64,000 bases of DNA. Origin: a bacterium (GTDB taxonomy: Bacteria; ARS69). The translations under genes and the position numbers were made by a program. The stretch is from the NCBI GenBank assembly GCA_046330135.1, contig JAXLTI010000003.1:1128221-1192220 (forward strand), read 5' to 3'. Shown here piece after piece: positions 16,447-43,322 of the stretch. The notes beneath the pieces were generated by a model. The model saw nothing but the letters and a program-made list of their open reading frames with translations, had not been told where the DNA came from and ran no database searches. Each line of letters begins with the position of its first letter. The stretch's first letter is position 1.

Positions 16447-16660
16447 GCGGCGCTTCGCACGCGCTGGGCGACTCGCTTCGTCGGCCGGAGTCACATCCGC
16501 TCAAAGGCGGCTCGCGGAGCCCACCGCTGCGCACTTCGGGACGACGCGTCCCTCGGCAGGGGGCCGCCGCGCCGCTTCGGCCCGTTCCCATTCGGTCGAC
16601 CTGCGCGTATGCTAGATGCCGACATCCCCCCTCATCCGGCCGTTCACCGAGGAGTCCTCC

Positions 16661-19471: not shown

Positions 19472-20056
19472 ATGACGCTGCGCACCGCCTCGCTCGGGAT
19501 CCTCCTCGCTCTCACCGTCGCTGCGCCGCCCCCTTCCCGGGCGGAGGACAATCCGCCGCCCGCCGCGGAAGGCGCCTCGCGCGCCAAGGCGCCAGGCTTC
19601 CACGTGGTCGACGTCAAGGGCGACAAGGTCTCCCTCGACGATCTCCTGGGGAAGGGCCCGGTCGTCATCGACTTCTGGGCGACGTGGTGCAAGCCGTGCA
19701 TCAAGGAGCTGCCGTACCTGCAACGGATCCTCGATCAATACGGGAAGAGAGGCGTGCAGGTGTGCGCGGTCACCATCGACTCGCCGAAGTCGCAGAGCCA
19801 GGTGAAGAAGTTCGTCGACACGCGCAACTACACGTTCCGCGTGCTGATGGACGGGGACCAGGAGGTCTTCCACAAGCTCCAGGGCAAGGGCTCCATCCCG
19901 TACGTGGTCGTGCTCGACTCGCAGGGCTTCATGCGGTTCCAGCACACGGGCTACGTGCCCGGGAACGAGAAGGAGATCGAGCGCGTGGTCGTGGAGCTGC
20001 TCGGCGGAGCGGGAGAGGCCCCTCAGGCGGAGGCCACGCCCGACACCACGAAGTGA
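19472..20056 (+). CDS. Secreted TlpA/ResA-like thiol-disulfide oxidoreductase (thioredoxin fold)
   Basis: Signal peptide, then DFWATWCKPC CxxC active site. Confidence 0.8.
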   Translation: MTLRTASLGILLALTVAAPPPSRAEDNPPPAAEGASRAKAPGFHVVDVKGDKVSLDDLLGKGPVVIDFWATWCKPCIKELPYLQRILDQYGKRGVQVCAVTIDSPKSQSQVKKFVDTRNYTFRVLMDGDQEVFHKLQGKGSIPYVVVLDSQGFMRFQHTGYVPGNEKEIERVVVELLGGAGEAPQAEATPDTTK

Positions 20057-21621
20057 GCCGGCGCCCGGGCCGCCCGACCGGCGGACGAAGGGGGCGCGCC
20101 GGGGCGTTCGCGATCGCATTCCTCACGGCGTCCGCGGCCGGCCTCGCCCGCGCCGACGACGACGCATCCACGCTCCGCATCAGCGCCACGGACAAGCTCG
20201 AGTACCGCCGCTTCGCCCACGAAGGCGTGCGCGAGGAGGCCTTCCGCAACCGGCTCGAGGTCTCCGGCTACCAGGGCATCTTCTCGGCGTGGCTCCGCCT
20301 CGAATCCCTGGAGCTCTCCAACGCCGCCGTGTACGACCCCTACGCCGTGGCGAAGACCGGCGTCACCGGCGAGCAGCGCATCGATCAGACCGAGGTCACG
20401 AAGCGGCTCTTCGGCGTGGAGACCGAGCACTTCCGCGTGCAGGCCGGCGACGTGTCGAACGTCTTCGGCCGCGGCCTCGCCATGTCGGTGTTCGAGGACG
20501 AGGAGCTGAACTTCGACACGCGCCTCGAAGGGGTCCGCGCGCGCGGAGAGAACGACCTCGGCGCCGCGACGGTCGTGGCCGGAAGCCAGCTCGGCAACCG
20601 CTTCCGGGGCGTCTTCGTGGAGCCGCGTCCGTTCGACCTCCGTGGTCCGTGGCCGAAGGCCCGCGCGCGGGTGGGCGGGAGCTTCGTGGAGGCGTGGGGC
20701 GCCACGGCGAACACGGACATCCTCCCGCGCGAGCAGCAGTCGGGCGGGCTCGCGGAGCTCGTGGTCGGGCCGGCCACGGTGTACGGCGAGTGGGTGGAGC
20801 GGGAATTCCCGGGGAAGGACGGGCTCGGCCACCTCGGAAAGCCGGGGCACGGCGGGTTCTTCTCGGGCGAGGTCACCACGCACGGCGTGACCTTCTCCGC
20901 CGAGCACAAGGACTTCTACCGCTTCGAGCACAAGTACCACGATCCGCCCACGACGTTGCGCCAGCACACGTGGACGAGCCTCCTGCGCGTGAACGGGCAG
21001 ATCCTCTCCGACATTCCCGACGACGACGTGAACGGGACGTTGCTCCAGGCCGAGTGGGCGCCGGGGACGTTCACGTCGTTCCTCGGGAGCTGGGCGCAGC
21101 TGGACAAGGACGTGGGCTCGGACCGTTTCCGCGAGGTCTATGGCGAAGCGAAGACCACGTGGCGGGAGAAGGTCTTCCTGACGGGTGCCGCCGCGGACTC
21201 CCGGGCCCACCTCGGGACCCAGCACGAGGAGCGGATCACCGGCCTCGGGGAGGACGTCATGCACCTCGACGACGTCAACAGCATCACCCTCGAGGGCGAG
21301 TGGGCGGAGGTGAAGCGTTTCGATGACACCACCTTCCGGTTCCAGGACCCCCGCAGGTTCCACGACCGGATCTTCGCGATCTCCTACGGCCGCTCGCCGT
21401 GGCTCGATCTCACGGTGACTCGCGAGGATACGGACGAAGGCGCGGCCACGGAGCCCCGCAGCGTCTGGGGCAACGTGATCGCGGAGATCAACGTGGCGGA
21501 CGGCCACGACGTCGTTCTGAGCTACGGGTCCGAGCGCGGCGGGTGGAAGTGCACGGGCGGAGTGTGCTTCTATGAACCGGAGTTCGAAGGGATGAAGATC
21601 AAATGGGTCGGTCGCTTCTAG
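20053..21621 (+). CDS. Predicted outer-membrane beta-barrel protein
   Basis: GTG overlapping the tlpA-like stop. Signal peptide AFAIAFLTASAAGLARA. Amphipathic beta-strand periodicity. C-terminal ...KIKWVGRF with terminal Phe. The track's 645-aa ORF from 19684 overlaps the tlpA-like gene and is an artifact. Confidence 0.5.
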   Translation: MSRRPGRPTGGRRGRAGAFAIAFLTASAAGLARADDDASTLRISATDKLEYRRFAHEGVREEAFRNRLEVSGYQGIFSAWLRLESLELSNAAVYDPYAVAKTGVTGEQRIDQTEVTKRLFGVETEHFRVQAGDVSNVFGRGLAMSVFEDEELNFDTRLEGVRARGENDLGAATVVAGSQLGNRFRGVFVEPRPFDLRGPWPKARARVGGSFVEAWGATANTDILPREQQSGGLAELVVGPATVYGEWVEREFPGKDGLGHLGKPGHGGFFSGEVTTHGVTFSAEHKDFYRFEHKYHDPPTTLRQHTWTSLLRVNGQILSDIPDDDVNGTLLQAEWAPGTFTSFLGSWAQLDKDVGSDRFREVYGEAKTTWREKVFLTGAAADSRAHLGTQHEERITGLGEDVMHLDDVNSITLEGEWAEVKRFDDTTFRFQDPRRFHDRIFAISYGRSPWLDLTVTREDTDEGAATEPRSVWGNVIAEINVADGHDVVLSYGSERGGWKCTGGVCFYEPEFEGMKIKWVGRF

Positions 21622-22841
21622 CCCTCGCAGCGGTCCTCTTCGTGGCGTCCTCCTGCTTCGAGGACGTGCCCCCGCCCACGCAGGGGTTCATCGAGATCGG
21701 CACCGGCGGCGTGTCCGGCGCGGAGGTGTTCCTGGACGGCGTCTCGCAGGGCGCGGCCGAGAAGCTCGGTCCCCTGGAGGCGGGCACGTACACGGTGAGC
21801 GTGGCGAAGCCGTACTACGACGTGGCGCCGGCGGACCGCGAGGTCGTGGTGCAGCCCACGAAGACCGCGCGCGTGGACTTCGCGATGACGCTGGTCGTGG
21901 TCGGTGCGGCGCACGTGACCGCCACGGACGAGCTTCTCGGCGGCGCGGTCGACGGCGCGGCCATCTTCATCCTGGACGGCTCCGGCACGCCGCAGCCCAC
22001 CGGGGTCGTCACGGACGCGTCCGGCAGCGCAACCCTCGAGCGCCTGCCGCCCGGCCCCACGCGGTTCCTCCTGCGCAAGGACGGGTTCGCGGACACCTCG
22101 CCGATCGCGGAGGACGTGCAGCCTTTCAACACCATCGACGTGGCGGCGCAGCTCGGGCCGCCGCGGGCAGTCCTCCTGGAGATGTTCACGTACGTCGTGT
22201 GTCCGAACTGCCCGCCGTCCTCCGCCGAGATTCGCGGGATGTACCGGGACAACGCCGGCACGCTCTTCGCGATCGAGTGGCACAGCGTGGCCGGGCTGCC
22301 GCTTTACGACGCGCGCTGGCACACGCACGAGATCTACTACCGCGGCACCAACTTCAACGGATGGCCGGCGGTGGTGGTTCAGGGCGGGGCCAACGACAGC
22401 CCGGCCGTGCTCGTGGACAGCAACGCGTCGGAGCTGGCCCAGTATCACGCCCGATTCGAGGCGCAGCGCGGCGCTTGCTCGAACGACTGCCCCGTGGCCG
22501 TGAAGGCGACCGGCACCATCGATGCTCTGGCCGCCACCTTCACGGTCCGTGTGAAGTGGCGGGGCGGCTCGTTGCCGGGCAACCTCGTGCTGCGGACCGC
22601 GTTGATCCAGCAGCTCGTGTCCGCTCCGGGGAACGACTCGCCCTACGACTTCGTGGCGCGCGATCTTCACGAGGAAGCGCTCACGTTGACGACGCCGGGC
22701 CAGGTTGTGGAATTCCCAGAATCCTTCATCATCTCCGGCACTTGGAACGCCGACAAGATGGATCTCGTGTCATACGTGCAGTCCGATGACACGCACGAGA
22801 TTCTGGCCGTTTGGGGGACGCGTCGTGTGACGCTCCCGTGA
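21603..22841 (+). CDS. Lipoprotein with thioredoxin-like CxxC (CPNC) module; Cys-containing paralog of the two downstream TGA-containing genes
   Basis: Lipoprotein-type signal (LFVASSC). Internal LLEMFTYVVCPNCPPS aligns with the EEFGxxxUxYCPxA segment of the downstream paralogs. Further conserved blocks (FAIEWH ~ LVHIDWH; YYRGTNFNGWPAVVVQGGAN ~ YYGVPAVPDVFFDGGNN). No T9SS CTD. Confidence 0.6.
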   Translation: MGRSLLALAAVLFVASSCFEDVPPPTQGFIEIGTGGVSGAEVFLDGVSQGAAEKLGPLEAGTYTVSVAKPYYDVAPADREVVVQPTKTARVDFAMTLVVVGAAHVTATDELLGGAVDGAAIFILDGSGTPQPTGVVTDASGSATLERLPPGPTRFLLRKDGFADTSPIAEDVQPFNTIDVAAQLGPPRAVLLEMFTYVVCPNCPPSSAEIRGMYRDNAGTLFAIEWHSVAGLPLYDARWHTHEIYYRGTNFNGWPAVVVQGGANDSPAVLVDSNASELAQYHARFEAQRGACSNDCPVAVKATGTIDALAATFTVRVKWRGGSLPGNLVLRTALIQQLVSAPGNDSPYDFVARDLHEEALTLTTPGQVVEFPESFIISGTWNADKMDLVSYVQSDDTHEILAVWGTRRVTLP

Positions 22842-22971
22842 GTCGGGGAGCTTGGCGCGGTCAACGTCAGGACAAGAGGACTCAAAGGAACACCACACCG
22901 GGCAACGGCCCGACCGCTTGTGCTAAAGTGGAGTCAGCTGTCCAAGTCCTTCAACTCGCACGGGGGTCCGC

Positions 22972-23736
22972 ATGAGACGGGCATTGGCAATCCTTGTGTT
23001 GGTCGCGGTCGTCACGATGGTTGGATGGTTCGGCGCGCCTTCGAACGCGCTCGCCTACGGGTACACGATCACGCCGCTCGGCTCGCTGACGCAGAGCTGG
23101 CCCGAGATCGACTTCACCGGGCCGTATTTCTACTTCCTGCTGAGGAACACAGCGGCGGTGGCGGACTCCTTCCATCTGGAGATCCAGAATCTCATCGTGT
23201 CGCCCGTGCCGCCGCAGGGCTACGAGTGGTTCCCGCAGGTCTGCTTGCGGCAGATCTGCTTCCCGGACAGCACCACGCTGCGCTTCGAGGCGGGTGTGCA
23301 GGACACGATCGGTGTGGACCTGGTCCCCTTCACCGACGGCGTCGGCAACGCGGACTTCGTCATGCACTCCGTGGGGAATCCGGCGCTCAACAGCACGTTC
23401 CATCTGAGGCTCTACGCGGGTACCGCGGCGGTGGGAGCGGGCATGCCGCCGAGCATCCCCACGCTGCAGCTCTCTCAGAGCGCACCGAATCCCGCGACCG
23501 GCCGCACCCGGATCCCGTTCATCCTGCCGCGCGAGGGACGCGCCACGCTGCGCGTCTACGACGCCGCAGGCAGGCTCGTCGAGACGCTCGTGGACGGAAC
23601 GCTCGCGGCCGGCGCGCACTCGGCCGAATGGACCGCTCGCACGGCGAGCGGGCAACTGCTGCCGGCGGGCGCGTATTTCTATCGCCTGGAGACTCCTCGC
23701 GGGTCTCTCTCGCGCAGCTTGATCCTGATTCGATGA
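22972..23736 (+). CDS. Small secreted protein with T9SS-type C-terminal sorting domain
   Basis: Signal peptide. C-terminus PNPATGRTRIPFILPREGRATLRVYDAAGRLVETLVDGTLAAGAHSAEW...GAYFYRLE. Confidence 0.6.
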   Translation: MRRALAILVLVAVVTMVGWFGAPSNALAYGYTITPLGSLTQSWPEIDFTGPYFYFLLRNTAAVADSFHLEIQNLIVSPVPPQGYEWFPQVCLRQICFPDSTTLRFEAGVQDTIGVDLVPFTDGVGNADFVMHSVGNPALNSTFHLRLYAGTAAVGAGMPPSIPTLQLSQSAPNPATGRTRIPFILPREGRATLRVYDAAGRLVETLVDGTLAAGAHSAEWTARTASGQLLPAGAYFYRLETPRGSLSRSLILIR

Positions 23737-23799
23737 CTCCGGACGTCTTCTCGCGTTAATCACCGGCCGGTCGGACCCGGCCTACGAAAGGAGCACGCA

Positions 23800-25812
23800 G
23801 TGAGAGCGAAGTGGTTAGCGCCGGTTCTGCTCGTGATCGGCTTCGTGATGATGGCGGTTCCCGCCTTCGCGGGGGTGCAGCGCACCACGATGGTGGAGGA
23901 GTTCGGGTATTTGTCTTGACCGTACTGCCCCTGGGCCCGTGCGGCCCTTCGGAACGTCGAGCTCGCCTACCCGAATGACGATCAGCTCGTCCACATCGAC
24001 TGGCATACGTCTGACGCCCTGGCGAACGGCTCGGGCGCAACACGTGCTAACTACTACGGCGTCCCGGCCGTTCCTGACGTGTTCTTCGACGGCGGCAACA
24101 ACGTTCTCGGCGCAGGCGACTCGGTGAGTGCCTACAGCGACTTCAGACCGCGCGTGGACGCCGCCTACGCGGTGCCCTCGAAGCTCATTATCAGCGCTCA
24201 GCTCGACCTGAACTCGAGCACGATGCTAGCCACAGTCACCACGGACGTGACTGTGGCGCCCGGCGAAACGATCGGGACACCGAGCGCCTGTAAGGTCCGC
24301 GCGGCGTTGACCGAGGACAACATCGTCAGGTGCTGCGAGCCCCACACCGGGCACCTGACTTGGAACTACATCTCTCGCGCGATGGTCTTCGAGGTTCCGC
24401 TCACCGACTCGCTTTCGGGCCAGACGCAGCACATCGTGCAGACGTTCCCGATCGACCCGTCGTGGAACATCCGGAACCTGCACGCGGCGGTGTGGGTCCA
24501 GCGCGACACGAACAAGAACATCCTCCAAGCGGCGAACGCCACGGTGGCGTACGAAGCCGTCCTCACGGATCTCGACCCCATCGTGGCGAAGGTCACGTCG
24601 GGGCCGAGCACCTTCGACGACCAGGTCACGAACACGGGCACGTTCAGCGATGACGTGACCCTGACGCTCGACGAGTCCACGCTGCCCTCTGGTTGGAGCG
24701 CGGACATCGTCTACAACTCGACGGTCTACCCGTCGACCGTCACGATCCCGAACATGGCGCATGGCCAGGTGGAGAACGTGAGCGTGCGTGTCACGCCGAA
24801 CGGACCCGGGGAGGGAACCGTTGCGCTCATCGCGGCGCCGTTCCACAACTCCACGTGGACGAACGTGCACCCGTACCACACGTTCTCGCAGACGCCGGCG
24901 ATCCTCTTCGTGGACGACGACAACGGCGCGTCCTTCGAAGGGAAGTACCAGAACGCGATCACCGGCGCCGGCTACTGGTCCGTGACGCAGACGGTGTCCA
25001 CGCAGGGCAATCCGCTCGCGAGCTACATCAACCTCTTCGACGCGCTCGTCTGGAACACCGACTCGCTCCAGACGAACACGATCGGCACGGCGCTCCAGAC
25101 CACGCTCATGAGCTACATGGACGGCGGCGGGAAGCTCTTCCTCGTCAGTCAGGGGATCCTGAACGAGCGCGGGCTCACGCCGATGGTCACGGGCTACCTC
25201 CGCGTGAGCGCGTTCACGCCGGACGTGGGCGGGGCGAGCGCGACCGGCCTCGCGGGGGATCCGATCGGGGACGGTCTGAGCTTCGCGGTCAGCCCGCCGT
25301 TCGTGAACAAGGCCGACGCGGTCACGCCGAACACCGGTGGCGTGGCTTGGTTGGACGCGGGCTTGAACCATGTGGCCGTGCGGTACGACTCGGGCGTCTA
25401 CCGGACGGTCTTCATGACGGCGCCCTTCGAGGGGATCGCGACACCCACGGATGCCACGGTGATGAAGCGGGTGCTCGACTGGCTCGTGCCGAACGACATC
25501 ACCGCGGTTCCCCCGGTGGCGGGACGGGACGAGAGCGGGCTGGCCCTCTGGCAGAACGCTCCCAACCCCTTCAGCGGCACCACCTCGTTGCTCTTCTCGA
25601 TGCCCCAGGCCGGGCACGCTCGCCTCACCGTCTACGACGTCGCGGGCCGCCGGGTGGCGAGCCTCGTCGATCGTCAGCTCGAGGCGGGGGCGCACTCGGT
25701 TGTCTGGGACGGCCGGGACGTGACCGGGGCGCGCACCGCGAGCGGGGTTTACCTGGTCCGCCTCACCGCGAACGGCCGGACGGTCAGCCGGGAGATGGTG
25801 CGGGTGAAGTAA
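23800..25812 (+). CDS. Putative secreted selenoprotein, paralog 1: thioredoxin-like U-P-Y-C module, large uncharacterised domain, T9SS C-terminal domain. In-frame TGA at 23917..23919 read as Sec
   Basis: GTG start 9 nt after AGGAG. Signal peptide VRAKWLAPVLLVIGFVMMAVPAFA|GVQ lies upstream of the TGA. The frame stays open from the TGA into the 577-aa ORF listed in the track. UxxC aligns with CPNC of gene 21603. C-terminus matches the T9SS CTD (NPFSGTTSLLFSMPQAGHARLTVYDVAGRRV...GVYLVRL). Confidence 0.6.
23933..23947 (+). promoter_or_regulatory. Putative bacterial SECIS hairpin, paralog 1
   Basis: GGGCC-CGUGC-GGCCC. Lies 13 nt downstream of the UGA. Loop identical to that of paralog 2. Confidence 0.5.
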
Positions 25813-25867
25813 AGGCGGATGCAGGAACACAGGTTCGGCGCCCGGCCGGGTCCGGGCGGCGACTCTC

Positions 25868-25906
25868 GGGGGGGCCGTCGGGCGACCGGCGGCCTCCCTT
25901 CTTGCC
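25868..25906 (+). terminator. Terminator-like hairpin after paralog 1
   Basis: GGGGGGCCGTCGG-gcga-CCGGCGGCCTCCC followed by TTCTTGCC. Confidence 0.45.
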
Positions 25907-26059
25907 GATTGGGGGCCGATCCGCGACCAACCCGGTGCCCCGGTGGCACTCGGTGTGGTATTTTGGAGCCAGTTGCCTAACCCCCACGGCAGCGGTGCGC
26001 CATGTAGGTCCGGCTCCTCTCTCCCGGCCGGTGCTCACCGGCTTCGAAAGGAGATCCCT

Positions 26060-28096
26060 GTGAGAGCAAGGTCCCTCACGAAGGTCCTTTTCCTCCTCCT
26101 CGGCGCCGTGCTCTTCGCCGCGCCCGCTCTGGCGACAGTCCAGCGGACGATGCTCGTCGAAGAGTTCGGCTGGTGGAATTGAACGTACTGCCCCTACGCC
26201 CGTGCGGCGTTGCGGATGACGGAACGGCAGGACTACCCCGACAAGACCCAGCTCGTCCACCTCGACTGGCACTTCAACGACGCGGTGCTCGGTAACCCCA
26301 GCTCGACGGCGCGCGCCCAGTACTACGCCGCGAACTCCGCTCCCGACGTCTGGTTCGACGGCAGCCAGCACGTCGTCGGCGCCGGCGACTCCGTGGGGAC
26401 GTACAACACGTACAAGCCGATCCTCGCGGCGCACTACATCGATCCGTCGCAGCTGCTCGTGTCGGTGACGCTCGATCTGAACTCGATCACGTTGACCGGT
26501 ACGTCCACGGTGAACGTCCAGGTGGCGCCGGGGGAGACCATCAACCTCCCCTCCAACTGCAAGATCCGGTGCGCGCTCTACGAAGACGCGGTGCCCCTGG
26601 GCGGCGGCAGAACGGAGCCGCACACCGGGAACACCACCATGAACTACATCGCCCGGCTGATGATCACCGAGACCACGCTCACGGCGACGAACTCGGGCGA
26701 TACCCAGCAGGTGGTGACGAACTTCAGTATCGATCCGACGTGGAAGATCCAGGATCTGCACGCGGTGGCATTCGTTCAGCGCGATACGAACAAGAAGGTG
26801 CTGCAGGCGGGCTTCTCCCCGGCGCAGTACCAGGTTCTCGTGTCCGATCTCGGTACCCCCGTGGCGCGGGTCAACAGCGGTGCCAAGGACTTCAACTCCC
26901 AGGTCCTGTACCAGGGCACCGTCAACGACGACGTGCTGCTGACGCTCGACAAGTCGGCCCTGCCCGTCGGATGGGACGCTGCGATCGTGTGGAACGGCAA
27001 CTCGTACCCCACGACGCTCACGATCCCGAACATGACGAAGGACCAGCAGGAGGCGATCACGGTCCGCGTGACTCCGTCGGCCCCGGGGATGGGGACGGTG
27101 GGATTCTCCGTGGAGCCCGTGTCGCTGCCGCCGGCCGCGCAGAATCACAGCTACATCACGTTCTACCAGCGGCCGAAGCTGCTCTTCGTGGACGACGACA
27201 ACGGCGCCCACCTGGAGACGTACTACCAGAATGCGCTCGCCAGCGCCGGCTACTTCGCGCTCGGACACGACGTCGCAGCCCTCAACGGAGCCACTCCGCC
27301 GGTGAGCTGGATGTCGAACTTCGACGCCGTCATCTGGAACACGGATTCGCTCCAGGTGCTGACGCTCGGCGGACCGCAGCAGGCTGATCTCATCAGCTAT
27401 CTGGACGGCGGCGGCCGGCTGTTCCTCTGCAGCCAGGGATTCCTGAACGATCGCGGGCTCGTGGCCCTCACCACGAACTACCTCCGGGTGAGCGCGTTCA
27501 CCCGGGACGTAGGTGCTCCGACCGTCACGGGCGTCGCCGGAGACCCGATCGGGGACGGCATGAGCTTCGCCGTCACCCCGCCCTTCACCAACCTGGCGGA
27601 TGCGTTGACGCCGGGCGTGGGGGCGGCGCCGTGGCTGGACTCGGGCGCGAATCACGTCGCCATGCGCTACGACAGCGGCGTCTTCAAGACCGTGCTCCTG
27701 ACCGCGCCGTTCGAGGGCATCGCTGCGCCCAACGACGCGCTGGTCATGCAGCGCGTGCTCCAGTGGCTCGTGCCGGATACGGCCACGGATGCTCCGGTGA
27801 TCGGTGGGCAGGTGGCGGGCGGTCTGGCGTTGTTCCAGAACGTCCCGAACCCGTTCAGCGGCACCACGTCGCTGCGCTTCTCGCTGCCGGCGGCCGGCCA
27901 CGTGGGCCTGGCCATCTACGACGTCGCGGGTCGCCGCGTGGCGAGCCTCGTCGATCGCAGGCTGGAAGCGGGCACGCACTCGTTCGATTGGGACGGGCGT
28001 GACGTCACGGGCGCGCGGGTCGCGAGCGGCGTGTACCTCGTCCGTCTCAAGGCCGGCAACGAAACCGTCAGCCGCGAGATGGTGCGGGTGCACTAG
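26060..28096 (+). CDS. Putative secreted selenoprotein, paralog 2: U-T-Y-C module, large uncharacterised domain, T9SS C-terminal domain. In-frame TGA at 26180..26182 read as Sec
   Basis: GTG start after AGGAG. Signal peptide VRARSLTKVLFLLLGAVLFAAPALA|TVQ is listed in the track as a separate 79-aa ORF ending at the TGA. That ORF is in frame with the 628-aa ORF beginning 9 codons later. T9SS CTD at the C-terminus. Confidence 0.6.
26196..26210 (+). promoter_or_regulatory. Putative bacterial SECIS hairpin, paralog 2
   Basis: ACGCC-CGUGC-GGCGU. Lies 13 nt downstream of the UGA. Two stem base pairs covary relative to paralog 1 (G-C to A-U, G-C to C-G). Confidence 0.5.
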
Positions 28097-28136
28097 CAGA
28101 GAGCGGCGCGGCGGGTCCGCGCGTCGCAGCTTCGGC

Positions 28137-28172
28137 GGGGGCCGTCGGCGTGACCGGCGGCCCCCGTTTCGT
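28137..28172 (+). terminator. Terminator-like hairpin after paralog 2
   Basis: GGGGGCCGTCGG-cgtga-CCGGCGGCCCCC followed by GTTTCGT. Homologous to the hairpin after paralog 1. Confidence 0.45.
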
Positions 28173-28294
28173 CGGGCCTTCGCGCTTCGTCCGGTCGCCC
28201 GGTCTTCGGGCTCGGTCTTCGCGCTCGGTCTTCTCGTTCGGCCTTCCGCGTTGCGGCGCTTCGGGCGAGAATCCGCCGGAAGAGTGAGGAGACC

Positions 28295-29014
28295 GTGCGA
28301 ACCGTCATCGTCGTCCCGACCTACAACGAAGCGCCGAATCTGGAGCGGCTCGTGGCGGAGCTGCGCCGCATCGTCCCCGAAGCCGACATCCTGGTGGTGG
28401 ACGACCGCTCGCCGGACGGCACGGGCGAGATCGCGGACCGCCTCGCGGCCGCGGACCCGCACGTGTCCGTGGTCCACCGCGCCCCGCCCAAGGGGAGAGG
28501 CCTCGCCGGCCGGGACGGCTTCCTCGCGGCGCTCGCGTCCCGCGCCGACGCGATCCTCGAGATGGACGCGGACTTCTCGCACGATCCCGCCCTGGTGCCC
28601 CGCTTCCTTTCGGAGCTGAGCCGCGGCGCCGACATGGTCCTCGCGTCCCGCTTCGTCCGCGGCGGCTCGGACACGGATCGCCCGTGGCTCCGCCGGCTCA
28701 TCACGGTGCTGGCGAACTCCTACATCCGCCTCGTGCTCGGCGTCCCCATCGGCGACTGCAACTCCGGGTATCGCGGCTTCACGCGCGCGACGCTCGAGGC
28801 GATCCGGCCCGCCACGCTGACCAGCACGGGGCCCTCGATCGTCCAGGAGGTCCTCTTCCGCGCGCACCGGGCGGGCGCTAGGATCGTCGAGATCCCGCTC
28901 GAGTTCGTCGATCGGCGCGAGGGCGACTCGAAGCTGTCGCTGGGGCTCCTCCTGGACGGGTACGTGATGATCCTCCGGCTGCGCATCCGCGAGCTCCTGG
29001 GGAAGCAGCCATGA
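28295..29014 (+). CDS. GT2 polyprenyl-phosphate glycosyltransferase (Dpm1/Ppm1-like)
   Basis: GTG after GAGGAG. Sequence VIVVPTYNEAPNLERL...LVVDDRSPDGT and DxD region, typical of GT2 Dpm1-like enzymes. Confidence 0.8.
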   Translation: MRTVIVVPTYNEAPNLERLVAELRRIVPEADILVVDDRSPDGTGEIADRLAAADPHVSVVHRAPPKGRGLAGRDGFLAALASRADAILEMDADFSHDPALVPRFLSELSRGADMVLASRFVRGGSDTDRPWLRRLITVLANSYIRLVLGVPIGDCNSGYRGFTRATLEAIRPATLTSTGPSIVQEVLFRAHRAGARIVEIPLEFVDRREGDSKLSLGLLLDGYVMILRLRIRELLGKQP

Positions 29015-31380
29015 CCACGCCGGATCCGGCTCCCGGGGAAGCCGCCGTGACCACGCCGGATCCGCCGAATGGACGAGCCGCCGTGACTGCGCCCGATCCC
29101 CTGGCCGCGAACGTTCCCCTGCGGCGGCTGACGATCGCCGCGGTGCTCCTGGCGGCGCTCTTCCTCACGTGCTTCCAGGTCACGGACACGGACCTCGGCG
29201 GGCACGTCACGGTCGGCCGGGAGATCCTGAAGAGCCACCAGATCCCGAGCACGAACTTCTTCAGCCACACGCATCCGGACTATCCCTATCCGGTGCACCA
29301 GTGGCTCGGGCAGGTGACGCTCTTCCTCGTGCATCACTTCGCGGGCGCCACGGGTCTCATCCTGCTGCGGATGCTCGTCGTCTTCCTCGGCGCGGTGCTG
29401 CTCTTCCGCAACGCGCGACGCGAGGGCGCGCCCATCGTGGTCGCCAGCGCGATCGTCCTCGTGCTCCTCGTCTGCGCGCGCCCGCGCTTCTTCGAGCGGC
29501 CCTTCCTGGTCACGATCGTGTTCCTGCCGCTCCTGCACGGCTACGTGGCCGATCTGCGGGAAGGGAAGACCCGACGCCTCTGGCCGATCATCCCGCTCAT
29601 GACGATCTGGGCGCACGTCCACTCGGGCGTCCTCTTCGGCGCGCTGTACCTCGCGGCCTCCGTGGTGGGGGAGGGCGCGAAGATCCTGCTCGCGCGACGC
29701 CCGGGCCGCCACGCCGTGCCGGGCTCGCACGTGTTCCCGGGGACGCCGCTGGACGGCTGGAACTACCGGCGGCTGGCGCTCTTCTCCGCGGTGGCGATCG
29801 CATTGCCCATCGCTACGGTCGCGCTGATCAACCCGAGCGGCGTGAAGCCGCTGGCCTTGCCGTTCCTCTTCTATCAGAACCAGGCGTTCCGCCAGATGAT
29901 CCTCGAGTACCACTCCGTGCGGCTGTCCGTGGATTGGCCGTGGGATCTCGTGGCGGGCGCGGCGCTGCTCGGCGTGCTGCTGCGCCCGCGTCGCGTGGAC
30001 CTCACGCAGCTTCTCGTGTCGCTCGGCTTCGGGATCCTCGCGTACCAGGCGGTGCGGGAGATCATCACGTTCGCCGCGGCGTCGGCGCCGCTCCTCGGGC
30101 GCACGTGGGGCGCGCTCGCGGACGATCTCTTCGCGCGCATCGGTCGCGGGCGTCGTGGGCAGGCGTCGAGCGAGGGCGGCGGCAGCGCGCGCGCGAACGT
30201 GGCCGAGGCGATCGTGGCCTGGGCGGTCGTCGCCGCGGCCGCGTTCGTCTCCTTCCGCGCCACGCAGGACTGGATGTTCCCGTTCGGGTTCGGGATGGAT
30301 CCGAAGCACTTCCCCGAGCGCGCGGTGGACTTCCTCTGGGCGGAGAACATCCAGGGTCCGATCTTCAACACCGACGTCTTCTCGTCCTGCATCCTGCTGC
30401 GCGGCAAGGGGCGGCGCTTCCCGGTCTTCGTGGACGCGCGGCTCGAGGCGTATCCGGAGAGCTTCTGGCGCGACGAGTACTACCGCGTGCTCGAAGCGGC
30501 GCCCGGATGGGAGGACGTGCTCCGCCGCTACGACGTCCAGTGCGCGATCCTCCGCCGCGCCGGCGGGGAGGTGGACGACCGGATCGGCGACGTCCTCTGG
30601 AAGGACCCCGGCTGGGGCTGCGTCTACTGGGACGACGCCATGATGATCTTCGTGCGTCGGGGTGGGCGGGCGCCGCGCAACGACGAGGTCCTCCGGTCCT
30701 GGGCGTTCACGGCCTTCTCGCCGCGTCGCCCGGAGGACGTGCGCGCGCTGCGCGGGGCGGCCCTGGACCGTGCCGTCGCGGAGCTCACGCGCCTCACCGG
30801 ATGGGAGGAGACCTCGTTCCTCCCGCGCTGGGCGCTCGCGGCCGCCTGGACGAGGCAGGGCAAGGGCGAGGACGCCGCGGACCTCTTCGCCCGCCTCGCC
30901 GCGCTCCGGGACGCGAAGCACAACGCGGCGTTCGTCCGGAGCCGTGCGGAAGCCGAGCTGGTGGCGGGGCGCCGGAGCCGGTGGGCGGAGCTTCTGACGG
31001 AGGCCAAGGCGGACCCGAACACGGCGGCGTCGCTCTTCGACGGGGCCGCCCTCCTGGCCGCGGCCGGCAAGTCCGACTCGTCCATCGCGATGTACGGCGA
31101 GGTGCTGCGCGCGGACCCGTCGAACGCGGATGCGTCGAACAACCTCGCGCTGCTCCTCGGTCGCGCGGGCCGGACCAAGGAAGGGCTCCAGCGCGTGAAC
31201 GAGGCGTTGCGCCGCTCCCCGAACGACGCCTACTACGTGGCCACGCGCGCCGAGATCCTCTCCCTGGACGGGGACCGCGCCGGCGCCCTGGCCGAGTTCC
31301 GGAAGTCCCTCGATCTCCTCCCGGCCGACGACAAGGCGGCGCGCGAGGAGGTCATGCACTGGATCCTCAAGCTGGAGTGA
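29011..31380 (+). CDS. Multi-pass membrane protein with C-terminal TPR repeats (GT-C / TMTC-like putative glycosyltransferase)
   Basis: Start overlaps the GT2 stop. About 10 predicted TM helices in the N-terminal 400 aa. C-terminal TPR-like helical repeats. 33-nt in-frame direct repeat at the N-terminus (AAVTTPDPPNGR / AAVTAPDP). Confidence 0.55.
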   Translation: MTTPDPAPGEAAVTTPDPPNGRAAVTAPDPLAANVPLRRLTIAAVLLAALFLTCFQVTDTDLGGHVTVGREILKSHQIPSTNFFSHTHPDYPYPVHQWLGQVTLFLVHHFAGATGLILLRMLVVFLGAVLLFRNARREGAPIVVASAIVLVLLVCARPRFFERPFLVTIVFLPLLHGYVADLREGKTRRLWPIIPLMTIWAHVHSGVLFGALYLAASVVGEGAKILLARRPGRHAVPGSHVFPGTPLDGWNYRRLALFSAVAIALPIATVALINPSGVKPLALPFLFYQNQAFRQMILEYHSVRLSVDWPWDLVAGAALLGVLLRPRRVDLTQLLVSLGFGILAYQAVREIITFAAASAPLLGRTWGALADDLFARIGRGRRGQASSEGGGSARANVAEAIVAWAVVAAAAFVSFRATQDWMFPFGFGMDPKHFPERAVDFLWAENIQGPIFNTDVFSSCILLRGKGRRFPVFVDARLEAYPESFWRDEYYRVLEAAPGWEDVLRRYDVQCAILRRAGGEVDDRIGDVLWKDPGWGCVYWDDAMMIFVRRGGRAPRNDEVLRSWAFTAFSPRRPEDVRALRGAALDRAVAELTRLTGWEETSFLPRWALAAAWTRQGKGEDAADLFARLAALRDAKHNAAFVRSRAEAELVAGRRSRWAELLTEAKADPNTAASLFDGAALLAAAGKSDSSIAMYGEVLRADPSNADASNNLALLLGRAGRTKEGLQRVNEALRRSPNDAYYVATRAEILSLDGDRAGALAEFRKSLDLLPADDKAAREEVMHWILKLE

Positions 31381-31562: not shown

Positions 31563-34235
31563 GTGGCGGAGCCCAAGATCCACGAGCTCCCGAAGGCGTA
31601 CGAGCCGGCGGCCGTCGAGGAGCGGATCTACGGCTTCTGGGAGGCCGGCGGGCACTTCCACGCGGACCCGCGCTCGTCGAAGCCCCCGTTCACGATCATG
31701 ATCCCGCCGCCCAACGTGACCGGCGTCCTCCACATGGGGCACGCCTTGAACAACACGTTGCAGGACATCGTGATCCGGCACCGTCGCATGGCCGGGTTCG
31801 AGGCGCTCTGGCTGCCCGGCACCGATCACGCCGGCATCGCCACGCAGGCCGTGGTGGAGAAGCAGCTCTACAAGGAGTTCGGGCTCACGCGCGAATCGAT
31901 GGGCCGCGAGGCGTTCGTCGGCGAGATCTGGAAATGGCGGGAGCGGCACGGGGACGCCATCCTCCGTCAGCTTCGCCGCCTCGGCTGCTCGTGCGACTGG
32001 TCGCGGACGAAGTTCACCCTCGACGACGACATGAGCCGCGCGGTGGCCACCGCCTTCGTGCGCCTCTGGGAGCGCGGGCTCGTCTACCGCGGCGCGCGGC
32101 TCGTGAACTGGGATTGCACGCTGCGCACCGCCGTCTCCGACGACGAGATCGAGTACGTGCCGCGGCGCGGCAAGCTCTGGTACGTCCGCTATCCGGTGCG
32201 CGGGGAGGAAGGTCGCTTCATCACCGTGGCCACCACGCGGCCGGAGACCATGCTCGGCGACACGGGCGTGGCGGTGCATCCGGGCGACGAGCGCTGGAGC
32301 AGCTTCATCGGCAAGACCGTGTTGCTGCCGCTGCTGGATCGGCCCATTCCCGTGGTGGCGGACGAGACGGTGGAGACCGCGTTCGGCACGGGCGCGGTGA
32401 AGGTGACGCCGGGCCACGATCCCGCGGACTACGACCGCGGGCAGCGCTTCGGCCTGCCCATCGTGAGCCTGTTCGAGCCGGACGGGACGCTCGGCGAGGC
32501 GGCGGGCCCGTATCGCGGGCAAACGCGCGAGGGCGCGCGCGAGCGGATCGTGGCGGACCTCGAGGCGCGCGGGCTCCTGGAGAAGGTGGAGGAGATCGAG
32601 CACAACGTGGCCGTGTCGGACCGCTCGCGGGACACGATCGAGCCGTTGATCTCGGAGCAGTGGTTCGTGCGCATGAAGGAGATCGCCGGGCCCGCCATCG
32701 AGGCGGTGAAGTCCGGCCGGCTCAAGATCGTCCCGGAGCGCTGGGCGAAGGTGTACCTGGACTGGCTCGAGAACGTGCGGGACTGGTGCATCTCGCGGCA
32801 GCTCTGGTGGGGCCACCGCATCCCCGTGTGGTACGACGAGGACGGAGTGCCCGCCGCCTCCGCGCTGCCGCTCGCGCGCGGCTCGCCGCACCCGAAGACC
32901 GGCAAGCGCATCGTGCGCCAGGACGACGACGTGCTGGACACGTGGGCGTCCAGCTGGCTGTGGCCCTTCGCCACGCTCGGCTGGCCGGAGCGCACCGCGG
33001 ATCTCGCGCGCTTCTATCCCACGCAGTTCCTGAGCACCGCGCGGGAGATCATCTACCTGTGGGTGGCGCGCATGGTGATCGCGGGCTACGAGCTGCTGGA
33101 CTTCCTCCCGGAGGACCAGCGCTGCCCGTTCTCCACTTGTTACATTCACGCCACGGTGCTCGACACGCAGGGCCGGCGGATGTCGAAGAGCCTGGGCAAC
33201 GGCATCGACCCGATCGAGATGATCGACAAGTACGGCGCGGACGCGGTGCGCTACTCGCTCGTGACGCTCACCCGCGAGGGCCAGGACGTGAAGCTGGCGG
33301 AGAACCGCTTCGAGCTGGGCCAGCGCTTCTGCAACAAGATCTGGAACGCGGTGCGCTTCGCCCTCGCCAACCTGGACGGCGTGCCGCAGGGGCCGCTCGG
33401 CGAGACGCTCGAGGATCGCTGGATCCTCTCGCGCACGCGGCGCGCGATCCGCGAGGTGGAGTCGTCGCTCACGGAGTACCGCTTCCACGACGGCGCCGCG
33501 GAGCTGTACCGCTTCTTCTGGAACGACCTGTGCGACTGGTACCTCGAGGTCGCGAAGCGCCGGCTGGCGCCCGGCGCGAGCGAGTCGGATCGGGAGGCGG
33601 CGCGCGCCACGCTGGCGCGGGTCCTCTCCGCCACGATCCGCATGCTGCATCCGTATCTTCCGTTCGTGACCGAGGAGCTGTGGAGCTACCTGCCGGGGAC
33701 GGACGGCGCGCTCGTGGTGGCCCCGTGGCCGGACGCGGACGCGTTCCGCGCGGACGAGGCCGCGGAGGCGGACTTCGAGCGGCTGCGCGAGACGGTCTCG
33801 GCGGTGCGGAACCTGCGCAGCTCCATGAACGTGCCGCCGAGCGCCACGGTGCGCCTGCTGGTGCACTCGGACGACGCGGACCTCGCGCGCGTGCTCGCCG
33901 AGACGTCGGAGCTGGCCACGGCGCTCGCGCGGCTGTCGGAGGTGACGGTGGGCCCGAGCGTCGCGAAGCCGAAGAGCGCGGCCAGCGCGGTGGTGCGCGG
34001 GGGAACGGTCTGGGTGCCGCTCGAGGGCGTCATCGACCTCGACGTCGAGCGCGAGAGGCTGCGCCGCGAGAACGAGCGCCTGGAGAACCTGGTCTCGGGC
34101 GCCACGCGGAAGCTCGGCAACGCGGACTTCGTGTCCCGCGCGAAGCCCGAGATCGTGGACCGCGAGCGGGAGAAGCTCGCGAGCCTGAAGACCGACCTGG
34201 ACCGCGTAACCGCCGCGCTCGCGGACCTGGAGTAG
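31563..34235 (+). CDS. valS: Valyl-tRNA synthetase
   Basis: GTG after GGAGG. HIGH motif (HMGHALN). KMSKS motif (RMSKSLGN). C-terminal coiled coil. Confidence 0.9.
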   Translation: MAEPKIHELPKAYEPAAVEERIYGFWEAGGHFHADPRSSKPPFTIMIPPPNVTGVLHMGHALNNTLQDIVIRHRRMAGFEALWLPGTDHAGIATQAVVEKQLYKEFGLTRESMGREAFVGEIWKWRERHGDAILRQLRRLGCSCDWSRTKFTLDDDMSRAVATAFVRLWERGLVYRGARLVNWDCTLRTAVSDDEIEYVPRRGKLWYVRYPVRGEEGRFITVATTRPETMLGDTGVAVHPGDERWSSFIGKTVLLPLLDRPIPVVADETVETAFGTGAVKVTPGHDPADYDRGQRFGLPIVSLFEPDGTLGEAAGPYRGQTREGARERIVADLEARGLLEKVEEIEHNVAVSDRSRDTIEPLISEQWFVRMKEIAGPAIEAVKSGRLKIVPERWAKVYLDWLENVRDWCISRQLWWGHRIPVWYDEDGVPAASALPLARGSPHPKTGKRIVRQDDDVLDTWASSWLWPFATLGWPERTADLARFYPTQFLSTAREIIYLWVARMVIAGYELLDFLPEDQRCPFSTCYIHATVLDTQGRRMSKSLGNGIDPIEMIDKYGADAVRYSLVTLTREGQDVKLAENRFELGQRFCNKIWNAVRFALANLDGVPQGPLGETLEDRWILSRTRRAIREVESSLTEYRFHDGAAELYRFFWNDLCDWYLEVAKRRLAPGASESDREAARATLARVLSATIRMLHPYLPFVTEELWSYLPGTDGALVVAPWPDADAFRADEAAEADFERLRETVSAVRNLRSSMNVPPSATVRLLVHSDDADLARVLAETSELATALARLSEVTVGPSVAKPKSAASAVVRGGTVWVPLEGVIDLDVERERLRRENERLENLVSGATRKLGNADFVSRAKPEIVDREREKLASLKTDLDRVTAALADLE

Positions 34236-39974: not shown

Positions 39975-39978
<4 letters not shown>
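38485..39978 (-). CDS. nuoM: NADH-quinone oxidoreductase subunit M
   Basis: Antiporter-like subunit. Start approximate (about VILLVLILILLAAG). Confidence 0.7.
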
Positions 39979-41950
<1,972 letters not shown>

Positions 41951-41951
<1 letters not shown>

Positions 41952-42768: not shown

Positions 42769-42787
42769 TCGGTTCCTCCCGCGCCCG

Positions 42788-43303: not shown

Positions 43304-43322
43304 GCGGCGCGCACCTCCGTCG

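What the first reader, a model, noticed from the sequence alone, without database searches (positions are those of the whole stretch)
19472..31380. Accessory redox/secretion/glycosylation cluster around the candidate selenoprotein genes
The gene order is: secreted TlpA-like thioredoxin (WCKPC), an overlapping outer-membrane beta-barrel gene, the CPNC lipoprotein, a small T9SS-CTD protein, the two UxxC T9SS-CTD proteins, then a translationally coupled pair of GT2 Dpm1-like polyprenyl-phosphate sugar synthase and a polytopic membrane/TPR protein resembling GT-C O-mannosyltransferases (TMTC-like). This suggests a functional unit: a periplasmic reductant, an outer-membrane component, surface-exposed Cys/Sec oxidoreductases and possibly their glycosylation. 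The composition does not match a standard annotated operon.
Basis: inference. Interest (0 to 1): 0.55.

Follow-up and report, generated by a model that had tools for sequence, protein, structure and literature searches.

The report
Outer-membrane thiol-redox module with selenoproteins
Part of this cluster is a widespread but unstudied gene module that pairs a periplasmic thioredoxin-like reductase and a large outer-membrane barrel with cell-envelope redox proteins, two of which here use selenocysteine; the neighbouring sugar-transfer genes are only neighbours.

Summary
All the described genes are present at the stated coordinates. Comparative genomics divides the cluster into two parts.

**Conserved module (g1, g2, g3, g5, g6).**
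- It consists of a TlpA-like reductase, a DUF6029 outer-membrane barrel and Omp28-family thioredoxin-fold proteins.
- In an unbiased sample of DUF6029 loci, 57 of 59 have TlpA directly upstream.
- 27 of 27 loci with more than 5 kb upstream also carry an Omp28-related CxxC gene.
- Thirteen loci, and three database representatives, encode in-frame TlpA-DUF6029 fusions.
- DUF6029 models as a 24-stranded barrel with an invariant CxGGxC pair.

**Selenoproteins (g5, g6).**
- Their TGA aligns with the first Cys of an invariant CxxC.
- A hairpin with compensatory changes follows the TGA.
- The signal peptide lies upstream of the TGA.
- NCBIfam already has an "Omp28-related selenoprotein" model, but g5 and g6 score far below its cutoff.

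**Glycosylation pair (g7, g8).**
- g7 is a Dpm1-like GT2 and g8 has a GT-C fold plus TPR repeats, so the pair is real.
- It occurs only in the window's own clade, always next to valS.
- It is absent from about 160 other loci.

My best reading is a TlpA-powered system that keeps envelope or surface CxxC/UxxC proteins reduced. This is inferred and has not been shown experimentally.

The parts
19472..20056 (+). g1: secreted TlpA/ResA-like thiol:disulfide oxidoreductase with active site WCKPC. It is a core member of the module.
   Evidence: Pfam AhpC-TSA and Redoxin score above cutoff. The best NCBIfam hit is the ResA subfamily, below its cutoff. TlpA lies directly upstream of DUF6029 in 57 of 59 sampled loci. 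It is fused to DUF6029 in 13 loci.
20053..21621 (+). g2: DUF6029 outer-membrane protein, modelled as a 24-stranded beta-barrel with an invariant C-terminal CxGGxC (C500, C505). It is translationally coupled to g1 and is a core member.
21603..22841 (+). g3: probable lipoprotein made of PEGA, CarboxypepD_reg and a thioredoxin-like/Omp28 domain with CPNC. It is the all-cysteine paralogue and a core member.
   Evidence: Pfam. NCBIfam NF045500 'Omp28-related selenoprotein' scores 46.5 bits, below cutoff. Residues 175-401 align with the g5 N-terminus, placing CPNC on U-PYC. Equivalent PEGA/CxxC genes occur in L005, L022, L033, L036, L045 and L048.
22972..23736 (+). g4: small protein with a T9SS type A sorting domain. 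It is a clade-specific neighbour and not part of the conserved module.
   Evidence: TIGR04183 scores 26.9 bits. It shares only the C-terminal domain with g6. Homologues are found in only 5 loci, all from the same clade.
23800..25812 (+). g5: Omp28-related selenoprotein candidate. Its parts are a signal peptide, a thioredoxin-like domain (U-PYC), an Omp28 domain, a middle domain, a domain carrying the GDPIGDG motif, and a T9SS C-terminal domain.
   Evidence: Translation. Pfam Omp28 scores 37.0 against a cutoff of 34.9. NF045500 scores 57.6 bits against a cutoff of 200. Database copies are truncated after the TGA (P0008).
23917..23919 (+). In-frame TGA of g5, read as selenocysteine, at the first position of the CxxC motif.
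   Evidence: It aligns with the invariant C41 of alignment A1. The same position is TGA in about 20 homologues and TGC/TGT in the others.
23933..23947 (+). SECIS-like hairpin of g5: GGGCC-CGUGC-GGCCC, starting 14 nt after the UGA.
   Evidence: Read from the sequence. Two of its pairs differ by compensatory changes from the g6 hairpin. The homologous hairpin in relatives has 8 pairs, 5 of them with compensatory changes.
26060..28096 (+). g6: second Omp28-related selenoprotein candidate (U-TYC). It is 58% identical to g5 and has the same architecture.
26180..26182 (+). In-frame TGA of g6, read as selenocysteine.
26196..26210 (+). SECIS-like hairpin of g6: ACGCC-CGUGC-GGCGU.
   Evidence: Read from the sequence. 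The same hairpin occurs in L001 and L007.
28295..29014 (+). g7: soluble GT2 resembling Dpm1/ArnC, a polyprenyl-phosphate sugar synthase. It is an adjacent but separate unit.
   Evidence: PF00535 scores 94 bits. PDB 5mlz matches at E = 4e-28 and ArnC at E = 8e-13. It is present only in the window's clade.
29011..31380 (+). g8: GT-C-fold glycosyltransferase made of about 420 aa of polytopic membrane domain, a periplasmic domain and C-terminal TPR repeats. It is translationally coupled to g7.

Best explanation
Genes g1, g2, g3, g5 and g6 form a dedicated cell-envelope thiol-redox module. g7 and g8 form an independent polyprenyl-phosphate-sugar/GT-C glycosylation pair that is only syntenic with the module.

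Proposed mechanism:
1. The secreted TlpA-like protein (WCKPC) is kept reduced by a CcdA/DsbD-type membrane transporter encoded elsewhere.
2. TlpA works docked to the periplasmic face of the 24-stranded DUF6029 outer-membrane barrel. In some lineages it is covalently fused to that barrel.
3. From there it passes reducing equivalents to the CxxC or UxxC active sites of the Omp28-family thioredoxin-fold proteins. These are a lipoprotein (g3) and two T9SS cargo proteins (g5, g6).
4. Those proteins act as thiol/selenol oxidoreductases at the outer membrane or cell surface, on an unknown substrate.

Selenocysteine replaces the N-terminal, attacking cysteine of the CxxC in g5 and g6. This marks that residue as catalytic.

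Shown here: the gene identities, the strict genomic coupling, the fusions, the Sec/Cys pairing and the hairpins.

Inferred: the direction of electron flow, the contact with the barrel, surface exposure, and the role of the barrel's own CxGGxC pair.
For: **Coupling from the DUF6029 side.** I sampled 80 metagenome loci with the barrel motif alone.
- 57 of the 59 loci with enough upstream DNA have TlpA immediately upstream.
- All 27 loci with more than 5 kb upstream (36 of 36 with more than 3 kb) carry one to four Omp28-related CxxC genes.

**Coupling from the Omp28 side.** TlpA plus DUF6029 lie next to Omp28-related genes in named MAGs of Fibrobacteraceae, Krumholzibacteriota, Melioribacter, Ignavibacteria, Thermoanaerobaculales and Eisenbacteria.

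**Gene order.** It varies. The Omp28-related genes lie upstream in 41 loci. They lie downstream only in 2 loci and on both sides in 2 more; the window has the downstream order.

**Fusions.** Thirteen loci have in-frame TlpA-DUF6029 fusions with a constant spacing of about 575 aa between WCxxC and CxGGxC. Three fused representatives appear in the exhaustive protein search. In the window g1 and g2 overlap by GTGA.

**The thioredoxin-like domain.**
- The Omp28-related N-terminal domain hits DUF1223 (PDB 2axo, E = 5e-4), Thioredoxin_3, Glutaredoxin and DsbA/ScsC around the CxxC.
- The CxxC is invariant in alignment A1.

**Selenocysteine.**
- The first Cys of that CxxC is TGA in about 20 homologues and never another stop codon.
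- The TGA is followed by hairpins with compensatory changes.
- Without read-through, the downstream ORFs of g5 and g6 would have a T9SS sorting domain but no signal peptide.
Against: - There is no experimental evidence for any step.
- No CcdA/DsbD gene is in the window or recurs in the loci.
- Only 5 of 20 well-flanked Omp28-related loci have TlpA and DUF6029 nearby, so many paralogues work without an adjacent pair.
- T9SS cargo passes through the periplasm only briefly.
- By ordinary outer-membrane-protein topology, the barrel's Cys pair sits at the extracellular tip of the last hairpin. It may be a purely structural disulfide.
- The substrate of the Omp28-related proteins is unknown.
- Selenocysteine machinery could not be checked in this genome: there is no tRNA-Sec in the window.
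Confidence: 0.55

Rival explanations
1. DUF6029 is an export or assembly pore for Omp28-family lipoproteins, comparable to an usher or to Neisseria Slam. The TlpA domain at its periplasmic mouth acts as a holdase or reductase that keeps the CxxC proteins competent for export. The redox chemistry would then serve biogenesis rather than a catalytic cycle.
For: - The short Omp28-related genes next to TlpA are mostly lipoproteins with a conserved C-x-T-N-P-P start.
- There is strict adjacency of putative transporter and putative cargo.
- The periplasmic domain is fused to the barrel's N-terminus, as Slam has a periplasmic domain.
Against: - g5 and g6 carry T9SS sorting domains and so have their own export route.
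- The invariant CxGGxC in the barrel and the Sec substitution in the cargo point to ongoing redox chemistry.
Confidence: 0.2
2. One reading: the whole stretch 19472-31380 is one functional unit, in which the GT2/GT-C pair glycosylates the adjacent T9SS redox cargo.
For: - All genes are co-directional, and the same order is kept in every member of the clade examined.
- g8 has a GT-C fold with periplasmic TPR repeats, which fits a protein acceptor.
- g7 resembles Dol-P-Man synthase.
Against: - The same synteny block also contains valS, DUF4140/4139 and a RodZ-like gene, so conserved order within this clade does not show a shared function.
- g7 and g8 are absent from all other module loci.
- An 812-aa gene is inserted between the redox genes and g7 in L171, whereas the gap between g8 and valS stays at about 33 nt.
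- There are gaps of 198 nt before g7 and 247 nt before g6 in the window.
Confidence: 0.1
3. The module handles a metal or metalloid. The Omp28-related thioredoxin-like domain (CxxC plus invariant His67 and Trp70) would bind Cu, another soft metal or selenium, as Sco proteins do. TlpA would reduce it, as Bradyrhizobium TlpA reduces ScoI. The barrel would be the uptake or export channel.
For: - H67 and W70 are invariant close to the CxxC.
- There are weak profile hits to ScsC and copper-resistance DsbA-like proteins.
- A TonB-dependent receptor lies directly downstream of DUF6029 in 12 of 30 sampled loci.
- The TlpA-ScoI precedent comes from my own knowledge and was not checked here.
Against: - Sec/Cys exchange is typical of catalytic redox residues rather than metal ligands.
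- The profile hits cover only the CxxC region and have E-values of 0.03-0.08.
- The receptor association is partial and is absent from the window.
Confidence: 0.1
4. The two TGA codons are genuine stops or pseudogene lesions, and the cluster is an accident of synteny.
For: Gene callers annotate only the downstream parts (P0001-P0052 cover about 91% of the query).
Against: - The TGA is at the same codon in about 20 genes from several phyla and is never TAA or TAG.
- It aligns with an invariant Cys.
- The signal peptide and first beta-strand upstream of it are conserved.
- Compensatory hairpins lie downstream.
Confidence: 0.02

Closest known systems
NCBIfam NF045500 'Omp28-related selenoprotein' and the Omp28 family (Pfam PF11551; P. 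gingivalis Omp28 lipoprotein)
   Same: It is the best NCBIfam hit for g5, g6 and g3. They share the N-terminal thioredoxin-like plus Omp28 region, with Sec or Cys at the CxxC. g5 passes the Pfam Omp28 cutoff.
   Different: - Scores of 46-58 bits are far below the equivalog cutoff of 200.
- g5 and g6 are about 670 aa, with additional middle, GDPIGDG-motif and T9SS sorting domains.
- I found no paper that mentions Omp28 together with selenoproteins.
TlpA/ResA/CcmG-type extracytoplasmic reductive pathways fed by CcdA/DsbD
   Same: A secreted thioredoxin-fold protein with a WCxPC motif, encoded next to its presumed specific clients.
   Different: - The partner here is an outer-membrane barrel, sometimes fused to TlpA.
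- The clients are outer-membrane or surface thioredoxin-fold proteins, not cytochromes or Sco.
- No CcdA/DsbD gene is linked.
- The ResA and TlpA equivalog cutoffs are not reached.
DsbD (electron relay across the inner membrane) and MtrAB (porin-sheathed electron conduit across the outer membrane)
   Different: No sequence relationship was found. The chemistry differs from MtrAB (thiols here, haems there). Transfer across the outer membrane is purely hypothetical.
ArnC/ArnT, GtrB/GtrC and Dpm1/PMT two- or three-component periplasmic glycosylation systems (PMC11127046)
   Same: g7 is a GT2 polyprenyl-phosphate sugar synthase and g8 has a GT-C fold. The two are translationally coupled.
   Different: - g8 matches no GT-C sequence family in Pfam or NCBIfam and gives only TPR hits.
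- No GtrA-like flippase was identified next to the pair.
- The acceptor is unknown.
- The TMTC signature domain was not detected.

Membership tests
TlpA/ResA-type thiol:disulfide oxidoreductase (g1) | Thioredoxin-like fold of the AhpC-TSA/Redoxin type | tested here: met
   PF00578 scores 86.6 bits against a cutoff of 26, and PF08534 scores 72.3 against 26.6.
TlpA/ResA-type thiol:disulfide oxidoreductase (g1) | WCxxC active site and an export signal | tested here: met
   FWATWCKPC motif, and an N-terminal hydrophobic signal ending ..SRA/ED (read from the sequence).
TlpA/ResA-type thiol:disulfide oxidoreductase (g1) | Reaches a curated equivalog or subfamily cutoff (ResA NF002854, TlpA NF047696) | tested here: not met
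   98 bits against a cutoff of 170, and 60.7 against 230. g1 is a superfamily member, not an orthologue of either.
TlpA/ResA-type thiol:disulfide oxidoreductase (g1) | Recharged by CcdA/DsbD | not testable with these tools
   No such gene is in the window or recurs in the loci. The rest of the genome was not available.
DUF6029 (PF19494) (g2) | Pfam gathering score | tested here: met
   55.4 bits against a cutoff of 27. NCBI names the identical protein a DUF6029 family protein.
DUF6029 (PF19494) (g2) | Outer-membrane beta-barrel with a C-terminal aromatic residue | tested here: met
Omp28-related selenoprotein (NF045500) (g5, g6) | Curated equivalog-domain cutoff | tested here: not met
   57.6 and 45.8 bits against a cutoff of 200. 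They are remote relatives only.
Omp28-related selenoprotein (NF045500) (g5, g6) | In-frame UGA aligned with Cys in homologues | tested here: met
   Column C41 of alignment A1. TGA versus TGC/TGT across the loci.
Omp28-related selenoprotein (NF045500) (g5, g6) | Bacterial SECIS-type hairpin shortly after the UGA | tested here: met
   Hairpins at 23933-23947 and 26196-26210. The family hairpin has 8 pairs, 5 with compensatory changes. The Krumholzibacteria type has 3 compensatory pairs.
Omp28-related selenoprotein (NF045500) (g5, g6) | selA, selB, selC and selD present in the genome | not testable with these tools
   Only the window is available. It has no tRNA-Sec and no sel genes among the ORFs scanned.
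Omp28 (PF11551) | Pfam gathering score of 34.9 | tested here: inconclusive
   g5 scores 37.0 (met), g6 26.1 and g3 17.7 (both not met).
T9SS type A cargo (g0, g4, g5, g6) | C-terminal sorting domain TIGR04183 above its cutoff of 23 | tested here: met
   24.6, 26.9, 33.6 and 31.9 bits.
T9SS type A cargo (g0, g4, g5, g6) | T9SS machinery present in the organism | not tested
   It was not found in the window, and the rest of the genome was not available.
Polyprenyl-phosphate glycosyltransferase, Dpm1/ArnC type (g7) | GT2 catalytic domain with closest similarity to DPMS or ArnC | tested here: met
   PF00535 scores 94 bits. 5mlz matches at E = 4e-28 and ArnC at E = 8e-13.
Polyprenyl-phosphate glycosyltransferase, Dpm1/ArnC type (g7) | Reaches a named equivalog cutoff (AglJ, DPM, PpgS, ArnC) | tested here: not met
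   All are far below cutoff; the best is 78.7 against 325. The sugar specificity is unknown.
GT-C glycosyltransferase (g8) | GT-C membrane fold | tested here: met
GT-C glycosyltransferase (g8) | Conserved acidic residue in the first extracytoplasmic loop | tested here: met
   The sequence ..CFQVTDTDLGGH.. follows the first transmembrane helix, and D61 and H65 are invariant in 36 sequences. The role of this feature in GT-C enzymes is from my own knowledge.
TMTC/PMT O-mannosyltransferases (g8) | Sequence family match (PMT, PMT_2, DUF1736) | tested here: not met
   Only TPR families are hit in Pfam, NCBIfam and PDB sequence searches.

The most novel reading that the evidence does not exclude
TlpA, DUF6029 and the Omp28-family proteins form a thiol-disulfide relay across the outer membrane. 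The TlpA domain plugs into the periplasmic mouth of the plug-less 24-strand barrel. The barrel's invariant CxGGxC pair passes the reducing equivalents outward to surface-exposed CxxC/UxxC thioredoxin-fold proteins. This would be an outer-membrane counterpart of DsbD, built like the MtrAB porin-sheathed conduit, and would give FCB-group bacteria a rechargeable extracellular thiol/selenol reductase.
Probability: 0.2. Interest if true: 0.85.

Novelty: new variant of a known kind. Interest (0 to 1): 0.6.

Why it matters
How a thiol oxidoreductase at the outer membrane or cell surface could be kept reduced is an open problem, because no reductant is known to reach beyond the periplasm.

This module gives a concrete, testable candidate:
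- a reductase that is tied to a large outer-membrane barrel, and sometimes fused to it;
- genomic linkage of that pair to envelope thioredoxin-fold proteins;
- repeated Cys-to-Sec exchange at the active site of those proteins, which marks it as catalytic.

The analysis also has practical consequences.
- It assigns a genomic context to DUF6029. About 920 representative clusters match at E <= 1e-10.
- It shows that a whole set of Eisenbacteria and Krumholzibacteria T9SS cargo genes are mis-annotated as N-terminally truncated proteins.
- It separates an uncharacterised GT-C/TPR glycosyltransferase family from the redox genes.

Tried and rejected
- **Exact look-ups.** The look-ups of the window's TlpA and of P0008 found nothing on record.
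- **Promoter and terminator scan.** It was uninformative on this 70% GC sequence: 0 promoters and 2 terminator-like sites, against 6.5 expected.
- **First metagenome scan.** The 9-sequence DUF6029 alignment had no searchable stretch. A 6-sequence alignment worked.
- **Recurrent ORF downstream of DUF6029.** A 600-880 aa ORF seen in about 10 loci had no Pfam hit and looked like a wrong-frame product. The real gene is a convergent phosphoglucomutase-like gene, which is lineage synteny and not part of the module.
- **Other recurrent neighbours.** A TonB-dependent receptor, a PorV-like gene, a tricorn-type protease, DUF4397 and a LytTR regulator are lineage-specific.
- **g4 as a truncated paralogue of g6.** Rejected, because only the sorting domain is shared.
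- **Literature.** There were no papers for Omp28 with selenoprotein, Omp28 with thioredoxin-like, or Eisenbacteria with selenocysteine. DUF6029 is mentioned in one paper, only as HHpred-similar to Wzi-like barrels.
- **Solved structures.** The DUF6029 profile has no sequence relative in the PDB.


Full report
**1. What is there**

The window is about 70% GC. The database proteins P0008, P0090 and P0150 match the window's g5 (a truncated form), g2 and g8, and all three come from a 1.29 Mb contig of an NCBI MAG labelled only 'bacterium'. Its closest relatives are labelled Eisenbacteria or Eiseniibacteriota.

Between 19472 and 31380 there are nine co-directional genes, g1 to g8 plus the upstream g0.
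- **g1** is a secreted thioredoxin-fold protein with WCKPC. AhpC-TSA and Redoxin score above cutoff, and the ResA subfamily is the best NCBIfam hit but below its cutoff.
- **g2** overlaps g1 by GTGA and is a DUF6029 protein.
- **g3** overlaps g2 by 19 nt. It is a probable lipoprotein with PEGA and CarboxypepD_reg domains. Its C-terminal half is homologous to the N-terminus of g5, placing CPNC on U-PYC.
- **g4** is a small protein with a T9SS type A sorting domain.
- **g5 and g6** are 58% identical paralogues. Their reading frames run from a GTG behind GAAAGGAG, through a signal peptide and one in-frame TGA, to a T9SS sorting domain.
- **g7 and g8** overlap by ATGA.

**2. The two TGA codons encode selenocysteine**

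- Most database homologues are about 620-630 aa and cover 91-92% of g6. They are annotated from the first start codon after the TGA.
- Full-length homologues (P0059, P0061, P0063, P0068, P0070) have CxxC exactly where g5 and g6 have UxxC, and both positions are invariant.
- Across the fetched loci this codon is TGA in about 20 genes from Eisenbacteria, Krumholzibacteria and Thermoanaerobaculales, among others. It is TGC or TGT in Calditrichota, Fibrobacteraceae, Melioribacter and others. It is never TAA or TAG.
- Fourteen nucleotides after the UGA, g5 has GGGCC-CGUGC-GGCCC and g6 has ACGCC-CGUGC-GGCGU. Two of the five pairs differ by compensatory changes. One of these involves a Trp-to-Tyr change on the 5' arm matched by synonymous changes on the 3' arm.
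- In seven relatives the equivalent hairpin has 8 pairs, 5 of them with compensatory changes. Krumholzibacteria use a longer hairpin further 3'.
- Without read-through, the downstream ORFs would have a T9SS sorting domain but no signal peptide.
- NCBIfam already holds a model called 'Omp28-related selenoprotein' (NF045500). It is the best hit of g5, g6 and g3, but at 46-58 bits against a cutoff of 200. The idea is therefore known and these are remote, longer relatives.
- The selenocysteine machinery could not be checked. The window has no tRNA-Sec and no sel genes among the ORFs scanned.

**3. Which genes belong together**

*Within the clade.* In relatives with 41-61% protein identity the whole order is kept (L001, L003, L167, L171):

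GGDEF, GT9, (Sortilin-like), TlpA, DUF6029, lipoprotein, FlgD_ig protein, split selenoprotein, GT2, GT-C/TPR, valS, DUF4140/4139, RodZ-like.

This block includes housekeeping genes, so conserved order within the clade says nothing about function.

*Distant relatives, sampled from the Omp28 side.* A genome scan with the Omp28-related alignment returned 80 loci.
- TlpA and DUF6029 lie next to Omp28-related genes in Fibrobacteraceae, Krumholzibacteriota, Melioribacter, Ignavibacteria, Thermoanaerobaculales and other Eisenbacteria.
- g7, g8 and valS are found only in the window's clade.

*Distant relatives, sampled from the DUF6029 side.* A metagenome scan with only the DUF6029 C-terminal motif returned 80 loci at 20-30% identity to g2.
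- 57 of 59 loci with upstream DNA have TlpA directly upstream.
- 27 of 27 with more than 5 kb upstream, and 36 of 36 with more than 3 kb, carry one to four genes matching my Omp28 N-terminal profile.
- The short ones are lipoproteins with CxPC motifs.
- The window's arrangement, with the Omp28-related genes downstream of DUF6029, is the minority order. Among loci with a hit, they lie downstream only in 2 and on both sides in 2, against 41 upstream only.

*The linkage is asymmetric.* Only 5 of 20 well-flanked Omp28-related loci have the TlpA-DUF6029 pair nearby. The pair therefore looks like a dedicated partner of a family that has additional scattered paralogues.

*Fusions.* Thirteen loci have TlpA and DUF6029 in one reading frame, with about 575 residues between WCxxC and CxGGxC. 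Three such fusions are cluster representatives in the exhaustive search. This places the TlpA domain at the periplasmic N-terminus of the barrel.

**4. The barrel**

- The AF2 model of g2 (pLDDT 88.3) is all beta, with 24 long strands.
- One paper notes HHpred similarity between Wzi-like barrels and DUF6029 (PMC9603273).
- The family has an invariant CxGGxC pair at the tip of the last hairpin, between strands 23 and 24. By the usual topology rule this tip is on the extracellular side or folded into the lumen. That placement is an inference, because I could not inspect the coordinates.
- The family is moderately large, with 921 representative clusters at E <= 1e-10.

**5. The glycosylation pair**

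- The closest solved relative of g7 is Pyrococcus Dol-P-Man synthase (E = 4e-28), followed by ArnC.
- D61 and H65, just after the first transmembrane helix, are invariant.
- The pair is therefore a GT2 plus GT-C system of the ArnC/ArnT or GtrB/GtrC type (PMC11127046), with TPR repeats that hint at a protein acceptor.
- It is not part of the redox module:
  - it is absent from about 160 other loci;
  - distant g8 relatives stand alone;
  - the g8-valS junction is tight, whereas in L171 an unrelated gene separates the pair from the redox genes.

**6. Mechanism**

*Shown.* The identities, the coupling, the fusions, the Sec/Cys exchange at the attacking cysteine, and the thioredoxin-superfamily signal of the Omp28-related N-terminal domain. 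That signal consists of DUF1223/2axo at E = 5e-4, Thioredoxin_3 and Glutaredoxin.

*Inferred.* TlpA is recharged by a CcdA/DsbD encoded elsewhere. It works at the periplasmic face of DUF6029 and keeps the CxxC/UxxC sites of the Omp28-family proteins reduced, so that they can act at the outer membrane or surface.

*Open.* The evidence does not decide among three readings:
- the barrel relays electrons through its own Cys pair (the novel reading, probability about 0.2);
- the barrel merely anchors the complex;
- the barrel exports the lipoproteins (the rival reading, about 0.2).

**7. Verdict**

- The selenoprotein family is known in outline from NCBIfam.
- I found no description of the conserved Omp28-TlpA-DUF6029 module or of the fusions.
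- I rate it a new variant of a known kind, namely a dedicated extracytoplasmic reductive pathway. It has a plausible route to something more unusual.

Noticed in passing
L062:9768-9865, L069:9776-9873, L043:7910-8007: In three Holophagae MAG loci a tRNA-Sec gene (ARAGORN, anticodon tca) lies on the opposite strand, just upstream of a Cys-form (CPYC) Omp28-related gene. This could be lineage synteny or a real link between selC and this family.
   Followed up: partly
L092, L102, L107, L109, L114, L116, L135 and others, directly after DUF6029: A TonB-dependent receptor with an N-terminal CarboxypepD_reg domain follows DUF6029 in 12 of 30 metagenome loci that have enough downstream DNA. It is often followed by a roughly 1100-1290 aa protein with a weak, below-cutoff FlgD_ig match. 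None of this is present in the window.
   Followed up: partly
window 27260-27830 (g6 residues ~400-590) and 24990-25560 (g5): The domain with the motifs LFVDDDxG, YLDGGGxLF and GDPIGDG is shared with M28, S8, M6 and M14 peptidases of Anaerolineae/Chloroflexia, Bacillota and several archaea. It has no Pfam family and its function is unknown.
   Followed up: no
window 34119-34207 (- strand): ARAGORN calls a tRNA-Glu (ctc) inside the C-terminal coding region of valS, on the opposite strand. It is probably a false positive.
   Followed up: no
L003:1933-3750 (- strand): A Dpy19-family (PF10034) GT-C gene lies just upstream of the GT9 gene in one relative. This is a second, unrelated GT-C near the block.
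   Followed up: no
L006:19721-22055: In Calditrichota LG25, valS and DUF4139 lie about 8-9 kb from the lone Omp28-related gene, and an ISL3 transposase is next to that gene. This may be a remnant of older synteny between valS and this family.
   Followed up: no
L171:4389-6423: In this relative the Omp28-related selenoprotein region is called as several short genes (39, 186 and 262 aa). An 812-aa Sortilin-like gene lies between it and the GT2 gene. This may reflect gene decay or an assembly problem.
   Followed up: no
window 16616-19288: g0 is an 890-aa BNR/Sortilin-like T9SS cargo protein with a partial match to the F510_1955 glycosylhydrolase family. It is present upstream of TlpA in L001 but absent in L003 and L167, so it is a variable neighbour.
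   Followed up: partly
window 3-4209; 39978-51701 (-); 52057-53979: The rest of the window is housekeeping: pilM, pilN and a secretin gene, Obg, DprA, RNase D, a complex I (nuo) operon and Kup. No selenium-related or DsbD/CcdA genes were found.
   Followed up: yes
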